A stretch of 64,000 nucleotides of DNA, taken from the NCBI RefSeq assembly GCF_003019035.1, contig NZ_CP027447.1; one strand, given 5' to 3'. Under the pieces are notes generated by a model. That model saw only the letters and a program-made list of their open reading frames with translations, did not search any database and was not told the origin of the DNA. The first letter of the stretch is position 1; every line of letters begins with the position of its first letter. Position numbers and translations under genes: made by a program. This DNA comes from Escherichia coli (GTDB lineage: Bacteria > Pseudomonadota > Gammaproteobacteria > Enterobacterales > Enterobacteriaceae). Positions 52,109 to 60,021 of this stretch are shown here, piece by piece.

Positions 52109-52202
52109 AGATACCTCAACCAGGATTTCACAAAATCGCGAGAAGTTTACCACAGAATCCCATGATGTTTGAACCGGGCAGCAACACTGCCCGGTCGGTA
52201 CA

Positions 52203-53492
52203 TTATTTGTCTGTTATATCCGCGTCTTCTGCGTCCAGCACCACTTCTTCAGGGCGCAGCATACTAATCAGTTTGAAGATCAAACTTAAGCCGATACCGA
52301 CGATGGTCGCCAGCGCCATACCTTTCAGCTCCGCCGCGCCAATGTTTACCTTCGCGCCACTGACGCCGATGATCAAAATAACGGAAGTCAGGATCAGGTT
52401 CTGTGCTTTGTTGTAATCCACTTTCGATTCGATCAACACACGAATACCGGAAGCACCGATGACACCGTAAAGCAGCAGCGAAACGCCGCCCATCACCGGC
52501 AATGGAATCATCTGGATAGCAGCAGCCAGTTTACCGACGCAGGAAAGCAGGATAGCGAAAATCGCCGCCCCGCCGATAACCCAGGTACTGTAAACACGGG
52601 TGATCGCCATCACGCCAATGTTTTCTCCGTAAGTGGTGTTTGGCGTGGAGCCAAAGAAGCCGGAGATCACGGTCGACAAGCCGTTAGCAAACATCGAACG
52701 GTGCAGACCTGGATCGCGCAGCAGATCTTTTTTGACGATATTAGCCGTTACCACCAGGTGCCCTACGTGTTCGGCAATAACCACTAACGCCGCTGGCAGA
52801 ATAGTCAGAATGGCAAACCACTCGAAGCGCGGCGTATAGAGAGTTGGCAGCGCAAACCAGTGAGCATTAATAATCGGCGTGGTATCGACAATTCCCATTG
52901 CGAAAGAGAGCGCGTAGCCCACCAGCACGCCAATTAAAATCGGGATAATTGCCAGGAAACCACGAAACAGCACGGAACCTAAAACCGTGACCGCCAGGGT
53001 GGTAATAGAGATGATGATGGTTTTGGAGTCTGGCGTTTGCCCTTCAGCCGGGAGTAAACCTGCCATACCGGCAGCTACGCCCGCCAGCTCCAGACCGATG
53101 ACGGCAACGATTGCGCCCATTGCCGCAGGTGGAAACAGCACGTCCAGCCAGCCGGTCCCCGCTTTCTTCACGATAAAAGAAACCAGGCAGAACAGCACGC
53201 CGCACATAATAAAGCCGCCCAGCGCGACTTCATACCCTAACGGCAACAGTAACAATACCGGTGAAATAAAGGCAAAGCTGGAACCAAGATAAGCCGGGAT
53301 TTTCCCTTTACAGATGAAGAGATACAGCAGCGTTCCTATACCGTTAAATAACAGTACAGTCGCCGGGTTAATATGAAATAAGACGGGCACCAGGACGGTT
53401 GCACCAAACATAGCGAACAAATGTTGCAAACTAAGCGGGATTGTCTGTAAAAGTGGCGGTCTTTCACTCACCCCGATAGCACGGCGCGTCAT
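52203..53492 (-). CDS. uraA: Uracil:proton symporter UraA
   Basis: 429 aa from [16 protein letters not shown]; NCS2 family. Confidence 0.94.
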
Positions 53493-53532
53493 AGTATTAT
53501 CCTCTGTATTATGTGTTATAGGCGCTTTACTC

Positions 53533-53560
53533 AAAAAAAAGCCGACTCTTAAAGTCGGCT
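53533..53560 (-). terminator. Intercistronic hairpin with U-tract between upp and uraA (terminator/attenuator-like)
   Basis: Minus strand reads AGCCGACTTTAAGAGTCGGC followed by TTTTTTTT; lies between the upp stop and the uraA start. Confidence 0.55.
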
Positions 53561-53577
53561 TTAATTATTTTTATTCT

Positions 53578-54204
53578 TTATTTCGTACCAAAGATTTTGT
53601 CACCGGCATCGCCGAGGCCCGGAATAATGTATCCGTGCTCGTTCAGTCCCTGGTCAATCGATGCAGTATACAGTTCGACGTCCGGGTGCGCTTTTTCCAG
53701 CGCAGCGATACCTTCTGGCGCAGCTACCAGCACCAGAACTTTGATGCTGCTGCAGCCCGCTTTTTTCAGCAGGTCGATGGTCGCGATAACGGAACCACCG
53801 GTTGCCAGCATTGGGTCAACGATCAGCGCCATACGCTCATCGATGTTAGAAACCAGTTTCTGGAAGTACGGTACCGGCTCCAGCGTTTCTTCATTACGGT
53901 ACATACCGACGACGCTGATACGCGCGCTCGGAACGTTTTCCAGCACACCGTCCATCATCCCAAGACCCGCACGCAGAATTGGCACAACGGTAATTTTCTT
54001 ACCTTTGATCTGATCGATTTCTACCGGGCCGTTCCAGCCTTCGATAGTGACTTTTTCCGTTTCGAGGTCGGCGGTCGCTTCGTAAGTCAGCAGGCTACCC
54101 ACTTCGGAAGCGAGTTCGCGAAAGCGCTTGGTGCTGATATCTTGCTCACGCATCAGTCCCAGCTTGTGTTTGACGAGTGGGTGTTTGACTTCCACGATCT
54201 TCAT
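53578..54204 (-). CDS. upp: Uracil phosphoribosyltransferase Upp
   Basis: 208 aa from [20 protein letters not shown]. Confidence 0.95.
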
Positions 54205-54230: not shown

Positions 54231-54290
54231 CAAAAAAAATCGACGGATTATACCTCCTTTCTTCAAGGCGGCAATATTATTTTCGTTGAC
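54231..54290 (-). promoter_or_regulatory. upp promoter with T8 initially transcribed tract (UTP-sensitive reiterative transcription)
   Basis: Minus strand reads TATAAT-CCGTC-GATTTTTTTTG; perfect -10 hexamer at 54247-54252 and the GATTTTTTTTG start region described for upp. Confidence 0.7.
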
Positions 54291-59994: not shown

Positions 59995-60021
59995 GCGGGC
60001 CGACGAGAAATGTCGGCCCGC
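59995..60021. terminator. Bidirectional hairpin terminator between convergent ppx and pdeF
   Basis: Perfect 10-bp stem GCGGGCCGAC / GTCGGCCCGC with 7-nt loop. Confidence 0.6.

What the first reader, a model, noticed from the sequence alone, without database searches (positions are those of the whole stretch)
53533..53560. Terminator-like hairpin inside the upp-uraA operon
A strong hairpin followed by eight U residues lies between upp and uraA, which I recall as being co-transcribed. This implies partial termination or attenuation that sets the uraA:upp expression ratio.
Basis: partly seen in the sequence, partly recalled or inferred. Interest (0 to 1): 0.25.

Follow-up and report, generated by a model that had tools for sequence, protein, structure and literature searches.

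The report
Leaky terminator between upp and uraA
The hairpin followed by eight U's between the E. coli uracil-salvage gene upp and the uracil-permease gene uraA is a real, already mapped, partly leaky transcription terminator, so it is ordinary in kind, although its sequence is unusually frozen across all enterobacteria.

Summary
On the minus strand at window 53562..53533 the RNA reads AAAGCCGACUU-UAA-GAGUCGGCUUU followed by a U8 run. It lies in the 85-nt spacer between upp (54204..53578) and uraA (53492..52203).

This spacer is 100% identical to E. coli K-12 MG1655, so published maps apply. RNAtag-seq/Term-seq re-analysis (TRS, PMC10687069) places a reproducible 3' end in or just after the U-run. 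Full-length SMRT-Cappable-seq reads (PMC6131387) show upp-only RNAs ending at the last U, and upp-uraA RNAs from the same start site. That dataset lists no uraA-only start.

It is already documented in genome-wide data.

New here:
- All 81 Enterobacterales loci examined carry the same stem (GCCGAC/GUCGGC) plus U8-G.
- Stem identity is 98%, against 52% at four-fold degenerate sites of upp.
- The loop varies, and every stem change preserves pairing in the sense RNA.
- In the four loci sampled outside the order, upp ends in an unrelated terminator and uraA is not downstream.

I found no conserved antiterminator, internal promoter or Rfam family. Termination efficiency remains unquantified. Interest is low.

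The parts
54231..54252 (-). upp promoter -10 box (TATAAT, 54252..54247), TSS (54241) and initially transcribed GATTTTTTTTG (54241..54231)
   Evidence: Promoter scan. SMRT-Cappable-seq TSS 2620909 = window 54241. GATTTTTTTTG is quoted as the upp-uraA reiterative-transcription site in bioRxiv 10.1101/732214.
53578..54204 (-). upp coding sequence (uracil phosphoribosyltransferase), stop codon TAA at 53580..53578
   Evidence: ORF list. NCBIfam NF001097/TIGR01091 above cut-off. RefSeq annotation of the MG1655 locus.
53538..53562 (-). Terminator hairpin: 11-pair stem AAAGCCGACUU / GAGUCGGCUUU with loop UAA. The conserved G+C core is 53559..53554 with 53546..53541.
   Evidence: Conserved in all 79 Enterobacterales loci with a spacer, plus 2 Morganellaceae loci. 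97.3% of cells paired.
53532..53540 (-). U8 tract (53540..53533) plus the invariant following G (53532)
   Evidence: 98.6% pairwise identity over 79 loci.
53528..53539 (-). Experimentally mapped RNA 3' ends: MG1655 2620196-2620207, with peaks at 2620198/2620200/2620202 and the SMRT-Cappable-seq TTS at 2620201
   Evidence: TRS supplementary data. SMRT-Cappable-seq Supplementary Data 1. Coordinate offset 2,566,668 and 85/85 spacer identity.
53493..53531 (-). Read-through leader of uraA: a poorly conserved A/C-rich spacer with the Shine-Dalgarno GAGG at 53504..53501
   Evidence: The alignment of 64 spacers shows only U8-G and the SD region conserved, with no conserved -10 box.
52203..53492 (-). 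uraA coding sequence (uracil:H+ symporter)
   Evidence: NCBIfam NF007995, 814 bits. RefSeq annotation.
52165..52195 (-). Distal end of the operon: hairpin ACCGGGCAG-UGUUG-CUGCCCGGU (52195..52173) followed by UCAAACAU with no U-tract. 3' ends are mapped at 52166..52170.
   Evidence: TRS primary 3' end of uraA at 2618834 and SMRT-Cappable-seq TTS 2618838.

Best explanation
The element is a canonical intrinsic (Rho-independent) terminator at the 3' end of upp that works incompletely. RNA polymerase starting at the single upp promoter (window 54241) transcribes upp. Some polymerases release the RNA in or just after the U8 tract, giving a 709-nt upp-only mRNA. The rest read through and transcribe uraA, and many continue past the weak uraA-distal hairpin into hda. 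No separate uraA promoter is detectable, so the terminator acts as a fixed valve: it holds uraA (membrane permease) mRNA at a set fraction of upp (soluble enzyme) mRNA, while both stay under the UTP-sensitive upp promoter. Shown: the structure, the mapped 3' ends, both transcript classes from one TSS, and very strong purifying selection on the stem and U-run of the sense-strand RNA. Inferred: that the 3' ends arise by termination rather than trimming, that the valve sets the protein ratio, and that selection on that ratio is what froze the sequence.
For: Structure and statistics. Gene identities. Spacer identical to MG1655. 3' termini at 2620196-2620207(-) in three TRS analyses, with R = 0.92-1.0 and adjusted p down to 1e-116, class 'Alternative primary in TU' for upp. 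SMRT-Cappable-seq shows reads TSS 2620909 to TTS 2620201 (upp only, Rich) and TSS 2620909 to TTS 2618838 (upp-uraA, M9 and Rich). Its operon table lists b2498, b2498|b2497 and b2498|b2497|b2496, all from that TSS, and no uraA-only start. No Rho-dependent region is listed at this site in the bicyclomycin data of Adams et al.. Conservation: upp is followed by uraA in 79 of 79 Enterobacterales loci with enough flank, and each spacer has exactly one GCCGAC..GUCGGC + U-run. Pairwise identity is 0.98 for the stem and 0.986 for U8+G, against 0.52 at four-fold sites of upp, with 26 different loops. All 8 one-sided stem changes give G.U in the sense RNA (they would be C.A in the antisense RNA), there are 2 compensatory double changes, and no pair is broken in the 7 core pairs. 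The same element is present in Xenorhabdus and Providencia, whereas Vibrio, Shewanella, Aeromonas and Pasteurella have a different upp terminator and no uraA downstream. The uraA-distal hairpin in the same loci varies and is replaced outside Enterobacteriaceae.
Against: The curated Term-seq tables of Adams et al. 2021 (three conditions) contain no 3' end at upp or uraA. SMRT-Cappable-seq did not call the upp TTS in M9. In Rich medium only 24 reads end there while about 154 pass. That library depletes RNAs under 1 kb, so this is a lower bound on termination, but efficiency in vivo could be modest despite the textbook sequence. None of the data separates true termination from 3' trimming back to the hairpin. 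I could not obtain protein or mRNA ratios for upp and uraA.
Confidence: 0.85

Rival explanations
1. Regulated attenuator. Read-through of the hairpin would be modulated by pyrimidine supply, for example as in the rph-pyrE intercistronic attenuator, where a ribosome finishing the upstream ORF close behind a UTP-starved polymerase blocks hairpin formation. uraA would then rise more than upp when UTP is low.
For: The site is intercistronic, between two pyrimidine-salvage genes. The upp stop codon lies only 5-13 nt before the G+C core in 32 of 79 loci and in Xenorhabdus and Providencia. The upp-only TTS was called in Rich but not in M9 medium. The extreme conservation of stem, U8 and the following G exceeds that of the neighbouring uraA-distal terminator.
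Against: In E. coli and 38 other loci the core starts 17-19 nt after the stop. From general knowledge of ribosome footprints, that is beyond the reach of a terminating ribosome. The RNA upstream of the hairpin is A-rich rather than U-rich, so there is no obvious UTP-sensitive pause region. No conserved alternative structure exists: predicted partners of the 5' arm are 3-4 bp helices at inconsistent positions (-66, -22, -8 ...), and the terminator is 1-11 kcal/mol more stable in 17 genera. No Rfam family matches. The Rich versus M9 difference rests on a calling threshold in a size-selected library.
Confidence: 0.1
2. Processing barrier. The operon would be transcribed as one RNA, and the 3' ends at the hairpin would arise by endonucleolytic cleavage downstream followed by 3'-exonuclease trimming back to a protective stem-loop. 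This would stabilise the upp segment, as REP-type stabilisers do.
For: RNAtag-seq, Term-seq and long-read 3' ends cannot distinguish termination from trimming. Many full-length upp-uraA molecules exist.
Against: A stabiliser does not need a U-tract, yet U8 is 98.6% conserved. The 3' ends fall at U7-U8 and up to 3-5 nt beyond, as is typical of intrinsic termination. The element is single-copy per genome and not a repeat family.
Confidence: 0.05
3. Full stop plus separate promoter. The hairpin would terminate essentially all upp transcripts, and uraA would be expressed mainly from its own promoter in or around the spacer.
For: A weak sigma-70-like match, TTGGTA-16-AATAAT (53591..53564), overlaps the end of upp. 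TTG directly follows the U-run in all loci. Several genera have 150-500 nt between the hairpin and uraA, which could hold a promoter.
Against: The promoter scan found no more matches than shuffles did (6 against 7.0). SMRT-Cappable-seq lists no uraA-only TSS, although a uraA-only RNA of 1.3 kb or more would pass the size selection, and about 140 reads from the upp TSS reach the uraA end. No -10-like block is conserved between the U-run and the SD.
Confidence: 0.04

Closest known systems
Canonical intrinsic (Rho-independent) terminators of E. coli
   Same: A G+C-rich stem of 8-11 bp, a short loop, an uninterrupted U-tract directly after the stem, an upstream A-tract that can pair with the first U's, and RNA 3' ends in or just after the U-tract.
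   Different: Nothing structural. It lies inside an annotated operon rather than at its end, and its sequence is far more conserved across the order than the neighbouring uraA-distal terminator.
Operon-internal partial terminators that create sub-operons. Examples are prs-dauA and dapA-bamC in Yan et al. 2018, and, from memory, rplL-rpoB and rpsU-dnaG.
   Same: It lies between co-transcribed genes, terminated and read-through RNAs share one TSS, and the downstream gene depends on read-through.
   Different: No targeted study, efficiency measurement or condition dependence is available for upp-uraA. It appears only as a row in genome-wide tables.
rph-pyrE intercistronic attenuator of E. coli (UTP-sensitive, translation-coupled; described from memory)
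   Same: A terminator in the spacer between an upstream ORF and a pyrimidine-metabolism gene. In many genera the upstream stop codon lies 5-9 nt from the stem.
   Different: In E. coli the stop codon is 18 nt from the core. There is no U-rich pause region upstream and no evidence of pyrimidine-dependent read-through. The known UTP sensing of this operon is at the promoter.
PyrR-dependent attenuator between pyrR and pyrP in Bacillus (Rfam PyrR binding site; gene order from memory)
   Same: The gene order: a phosphoribosyltransferase-type gene, then a terminator, then a uracil permease of the same NCS2 family.
   Different: There is no PyrR-binding-site match in Rfam scans and no antiterminator. 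E. coli Upp showed no specific RNA binding in iCLIP or SELEX. The CCAGAGAG loop seen in Pantoea is clade-specific and absent elsewhere.

Membership tests
Intrinsic (Rho-independent) terminator | Stable G+C-rich stem-loop in the nascent RNA | tested here: met
   11-pair stem with 6 G-C pairs, -15.2 kcal/mol, z = -3.9. 97.3% of cells paired across 42 distinct sequences.
Intrinsic (Rho-independent) terminator | Uninterrupted U-rich tract starting within 0-2 nt of the stem | tested here: met
   Eight consecutive U's directly after GUCGGC. The same U8 is present in nearly all of 79 loci.
Intrinsic (Rho-independent) terminator | RNA 3' ends in vivo map to the U-tract, on the strand of the upstream gene | tested here: met
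   Published 3' ends at MG1655 2620196-2620207(-) and TTS 2620201, equal to window 53528-53539. The spacer is identical to MG1655.
Intrinsic (Rho-independent) terminator | Factor-independent release by purified RNA polymerase in vitro | not testable with these tools
   This needs in vitro transcription. Indirect evidence only: no Rho-dependent region is listed here in the Adams et al. supplement.
Operon-internal partial terminator (sub-operon valve) | Terminated and read-through transcripts share one transcription start | tested here: met
   SMRT-Cappable-seq rows 2620201-2620909 (b2498) and 2618838-2620909 (b2498|b2497).
Operon-internal partial terminator (sub-operon valve) | The downstream gene has no promoter of its own | tested here: met
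   No uraA-only TSS in the operon table. No conserved -10 block in 64 aligned spacers. This is absence of evidence under two growth conditions only.
Operon-internal partial terminator (sub-operon valve) | A measured drop in expression across the site | tested here: inconclusive
   Read counts of 24 ending and about 154 passing are biased by the 1-kb size selection. The TRS R statistic is not an efficiency.
Translation-coupled UTP-sensitive attenuator (pyrE/pyrBI type) | The stop codon of the upstream ORF lies within ribosome reach of the hairpin | tested here: not met
   18 nt to the core (15 nt to the extended stem) in this window, and 17-19 nt in 39 of 79 loci. It is met (5-13 nt) in 32 of 79 loci.
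Translation-coupled UTP-sensitive attenuator (pyrE/pyrBI type) | U-rich pause region upstream of the terminator, and pyrimidine-dependent read-through | tested here: not met
   The upstream RNA is A-rich (AAAUAAAGAAUAAAAAUAAUUAAAG). Pyrimidine dependence is not testable here.
Riboswitch or antiterminator-type attenuator | A conserved alternative structure that sequesters one arm of the terminator, or a match to a curated RNA family | tested here: not met
   Inconsistent 3-4 bp partners, with the terminator favoured by 1-11 kcal/mol. No Rfam hit reaches gathering score; the best is 28 bits against a 55-bit threshold.
REP-type mRNA stabiliser or repeated palindrome | A multi-copy family in the genome, with no U-tract needed | tested here: not met
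   One place per genome in 5362 E. coli genomes. U8 is conserved.
Hfq-bound 3'UTR-derived sRNA | Recovered with Hfq or in sRNA-target chimeras | tested here: inconclusive
   No upp or uraA entry in the held Hfq CLASH supplements.

The most novel reading that the evidence does not exclude
The upp terminator may be more than a fixed leak. It could be a tuned, possibly modulated valve whose exact sequence (AGCCGAC-loop-GUCGGC-U8-G) has been frozen across the whole order Enterobacterales. The reason would be that read-through is adjusted, for example by UTP-dependent elongation kinetics at the U8 tract, by the ribosome terminating 5-18 nt upstream, or by a terminator-binding factor. That would give uraA a second, post-initiation layer of pyrimidine control on top of reiterative transcription at the promoter.
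Probability: 0.1. Interest if true: 0.45.

Novelty: already known. Interest (0 to 1): 0.2.

Why it matters
This is a clean natural example of how a bacterial operon expresses a soluble enzyme and its partner membrane transporter at different levels from one promoter. The one non-trivial addition is evolutionary. The terminator is more conserved than the coding DNA around it, but only in the lineage where uraA sits behind it. That is what selection on a precise read-through level, rather than on termination as such, would produce. Operon-internal terminators could then be recognised by sequence freezing instead of covariation. The practical relevance is modest: uraA and upp determine 5-fluorouracil uptake and activation in enterobacteria.

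Tried and rejected
1. Rfam. Only sub-threshold generic hairpin-plus-U hits were found (STnc240 at 28 bits against a 55-bit threshold), and nothing in five Pantoea/Mixta loci.

2. PyrR-like or Upp autoregulation. This was prompted by a CCAGAGAG loop in Pantoea. It is rejected because the loop is clade-specific, Rfam gives no PyrR match, and iCLIP/SELEX of E. coli Upp showed no specific RNA binding.

3. Conserved antiterminator. Nascent-RNA folds in 17 genera give inconsistent 3-4 bp partners.

4. Internal uraA promoter. The 9/12 promoter-like match at 53591..53564 is no better than chance, is not conserved, and has no matching TSS.

5. DNA palindrome or antisense function. The wobble-only substitutions fit the sense RNA only.

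6. Repeat family. The element is single-copy per genome. The only other GCCGAC..GTCGGC in the window is the unrelated ppx terminator.

7. Hfq link. There is nothing in the Hfq CLASH tables.

8. Literature dead ends. The original upp and uraA papers, the Turnbough review, Li et al. 2014, SEnd-seq and Rend-seq papers are not held. The Dar & Sorek, Conway, Choe and Grünberger supplements are not held as text. Adams et al. list no 3' end here.

9. Searching the literature for the hairpin sequence found only two unrelated papers, which I did not open.

Full report
WHAT IS THERE

The window is E. coli. It is not K-12: about 98.5% identical to MG1655 over this region. Window coordinate + 2,566,668 gives the NC_000913.3 coordinate.

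- upp and uraA lie on the minus strand: upp at 54204..53578 and uraA at 53492..52203.
- NCBIfam equivalog models identify them as uracil phosphoribosyltransferase (303 bits) and uracil permease (814 bits).
- The 85-nt spacer reads, as RNA: UAA-AGAAUAAAAAUAAUU-AAAGCCGACUU-UAA-GAGUCGGCUUU-UUUUU-GAGUAAAGCGCCUAUAACACAUAAUACAGAGGAUAAUACU-AUG.
- The hairpin has 11 pairs, folds at -15.2 kcal/mol and has z = -3.9. Eight consecutive U's follow the G+C core.
- A strict composite search (perfect stem of at least 8 bp, then at least 8 T) finds this site only, and nothing in 100 dinucleotide shuffles of the window.

EXPERIMENTAL EVIDENCE ALREADY IN THE LITERATURE

The spacer is 85/85 identical to MG1655. 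The exact 42-mer around the hairpin is present once in 5343 of 5426 complete E. coli genomes, so MG1655 maps transfer directly.

TRS (Nat Commun 2023, PMC10687069):
- It lists a 3' terminus on the minus strand at 2620196-2620207 in three analyses. Peaks are at 2620198, 2620200 and 2620202, R is 0.92-1.0, and adjusted p goes down to 1e-116.
- The site is annotated 'Alternative primary in TU' for upp, meaning a 3' end after a gene that is not last in its operon.
- The supplement prints the same hairpin at -15.2 kcal/mol with an 8/8 U tail.
- These positions are window 53528-53539, in or just after the U-run.

SMRT-Cappable-seq (Nat Commun 2018, PMC6131387), which sequences whole primary transcripts:
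- In Rich medium, reads from TSS 2620909 (window 54241) end at 2620201 (window 53533, the last U) and cover upp only.
- In both M9 and Rich medium, reads from the same TSS end at 2618838 and cover upp plus uraA.
- Its operon table has b2498, b2498|b2497 ('same' as RegulonDB) and b2498|b2497|b2496, all from that TSS, and no uraA-only start.

Counts in Rich medium are 24 reads ending at the hairpin and, by my reading, 154 passing. The two count columns look swapped in that sheet, because 139 reads from this TSS reach the uraA end; this is my inference. The library was size-selected for 1 kb or more, so the 709-nt upp-only RNA is under-counted. The numbers are only a lower bound on termination.

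Against this, the curated Term-seq tables of Adams et al. 2021 contain no 3' end at upp or uraA. Their bicyclomycin table lists no Rho-dependent region here either.

COMPARATIVE EVIDENCE (NEW HERE)

A genome scan with Upp returned 80 loci across Enterobacterales, including Escherichia, Citrobacter, Enterobacter, Kosakonia, Yersinia, Serratia, Pantoea, Erwinia, Dickeya, Brenneria, Hafnia, Edwardsiella and Rahnella.

- In all 79 loci with enough flank, uraA follows upp.
- Each spacer contains exactly one copy of [A/G]CCG[A/G]C-N4-10-GUCGG[C/U] followed by a U-run, which is U8 in nearly every case.
- Mean pairwise identity is 0.98 for the 12 core stem bases and 0.986 for U8+G. It is 0.52 at four-fold degenerate sites of upp and 0.84 for the upp coding DNA as a whole. 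The loop has 26 variants.
- On a 42-sequence alignment, 97.3% of cells pair. The 8 one-sided changes are all A-U or G-C to G.U in the sense RNA; they would be C.A mismatches in the antisense RNA or merely an imperfect DNA palindrome. Two pairs show compensatory double changes (G-C to A-U in Erwinia persicina, U-A to C-G in L072). No pair is broken among the seven core pairs.

Selection therefore acts on the hairpin of the upp-uraA mRNA itself.

As a control, the hairpin after uraA in the same loci varies in sequence and is replaced by unrelated hairpins in Yersinia, Pantoea, Dickeya and others.

Two Morganellaceae loci (Xenorhabdus, Providencia) have the same element followed by uraA. In Vibrio harveyi, Shewanella, Aeromonas veronii and Pasteurella atlantica, upp is followed by a different hairpin plus U-run, and uraA is not downstream.

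upp therefore carries its own terminator in every lineage sampled. The terminator sequence is frozen only where uraA lies behind it.

MECHANISM

The best-supported account is a leaky intrinsic terminator. One promoter makes two RNA classes, and uraA is made only by polymerases that read through. That promoter's initially transcribed GAUUUUUUUUG is the known UTP-sensitive reiterative-transcription site.

Downstream of the U-run, only the following G and the Shine-Dalgarno region are conserved. There is no -10-like block.

I infer that the freezing reflects stabilising selection on the read-through level: strengthening or weakening the hairpin would change permease dosage. This is an inference and is untested.

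ALTERNATIVES

- Regulated, pyrE-like translation-coupled attenuation is attractive because the stop codon lies 5-13 nt from the core in 32 of 79 loci. In E. coli and 38 other loci the distance is 17-19 nt, and the upstream RNA is A-rich rather than U-rich. No conserved alternative pairing exists.
- Trimming to a protective hairpin cannot be excluded from sequencing data alone, but it does not explain the conserved U8.
- A separate uraA promoter is not supported.
- Rfam gives nothing above threshold.
- Upp shows no specific RNA binding.
- The Hfq CLASH tables have no entry for these genes.

COMPARISON WITH WHAT IS KNOWN, AND VERDICT

The element meets every testable criterion of an intrinsic terminator and of an operon-internal partial terminator. 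The exceptions are the measured drop in expression across the site, which the available counts left inconclusive, and in vitro release, which cannot be tested with these tools. It fails the testable criteria of pyrE-type, riboswitch-type and PyrR-type attenuators.

From memory, Andersen et al. (J Bacteriol 1995) showed uraA to be the second gene of a bicistronic operon with upp, and Tu and Turnbough (J Bacteriol 1997) described the promoter mechanism. Neither paper is in the held library.

The deep sequence freezing is a small additional observation.

Interest: 0.2.

Noticed in passing
window 54231-54252 (-): The upp promoter's initially transcribed region GATTTTTTTTG (the UTP-sensitive reiterative-transcription site) has the same T8-then-G as the terminator tail (GGC-T8-G). 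The SMRT-Cappable-seq TSS 2620909 maps exactly to its first G (54241). The resemblance is probably coincidental.
   Followed up: partly
window 52165-52195 (-): The hairpin after uraA (ACCGGGCAG..CUGCCCGGU) has no U-tract. In M9 medium, 95 of 142 long reads that reach it pass through, and Yan et al. list a 'novel' upp-uraA-hda transcript. Part of hda (a regulator of replication initiation) transcription may therefore come from the pyrimidine-regulated upp promoter.
   Followed up: partly
window 59999-60017 (+): A second GCCGAC..GTCGGC palindrome lies inside the hairpin GCGGGCCGAC-gagaaat-GTCGGCCCGC, a few bases after a stop codon. Its position matches the 3' end that TRS assigns to ppx (2626693 = window 60025). 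The shared 6-bp core with the upp terminator looks like chance, although only 0.01 matches were expected.
   Followed up: partly
L057, L064, L067 (Yersinia), L062, L069 (Pantoea): between the upp stop and the hairpin: An insertion of about 130-145 nt shares blocks such as GTACGCTCCGGTTTCT..GCGCTGTCCGTG..CAAA.TGCCTG between Yersinia and Pantoea. It separates upp from the conserved hairpin, which stays 29-57 nt from uraA (154 nt in L062). There are no ERIC-like words, and no Rfam hit in L062. It could be a mobile repeat or an unannotated RNA.
   Followed up: partly
L070 (Brenneria roseae) spacer, 533 nt: A tandem array of about five units, each of roughly 90 nt and each containing a hairpin plus T7 (AAAAACGCCTTTGGCGTTTTTTTATGA), lies between the conserved upp hairpin and uraA. 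The result is a stack of terminator-like elements in front of the permease gene.
   Followed up: no
L025, L045, L048, L051, L056, L061 (Kosakonia and relatives), between the U-run and the uraA SD: An extra G+C-rich stem-loop (e.g. CUGCCCGCCG..GGACGGGGAG) lies in the uraA leader. It is absent from E. coli. Its function is unknown.
   Followed up: no
L049, L053, L044, L055, L068, L078, L074: Unrelated insertions of 140-230 nt lie between the conserved hairpin and uraA. These spacers are long enough to carry a lineage-specific uraA promoter, which would uncouple uraA from read-through in those species.
   Followed up: no
window 53564-53591 (-): A sigma-70-like match TTGGTA-16-AATAAT at the end of upp would start transcripts inside the 5' arm of the hairpin, so they would escape termination. 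It scores 9/12, no better than shuffles. It has no matching TSS in SMRT-Cappable-seq and lies in the A-rich segment specific to the E. coli clade.
   Followed up: yes
L084-L087 (Vibrio, Shewanella, Aeromonas, Pasteurella): purM-purN lie divergently upstream of upp in the Shewanella and Aeromonas loci as in E. coli (purN is also called upstream in Vibrio harveyi; Pasteurella has rplM-rpsI there instead), and hda is nearby in Aeromonas. uraA is missing from the position downstream of upp in all four, so uraA appears to have been placed behind an existing upp terminator in the Enterobacterales lineage.
   Followed up: partly
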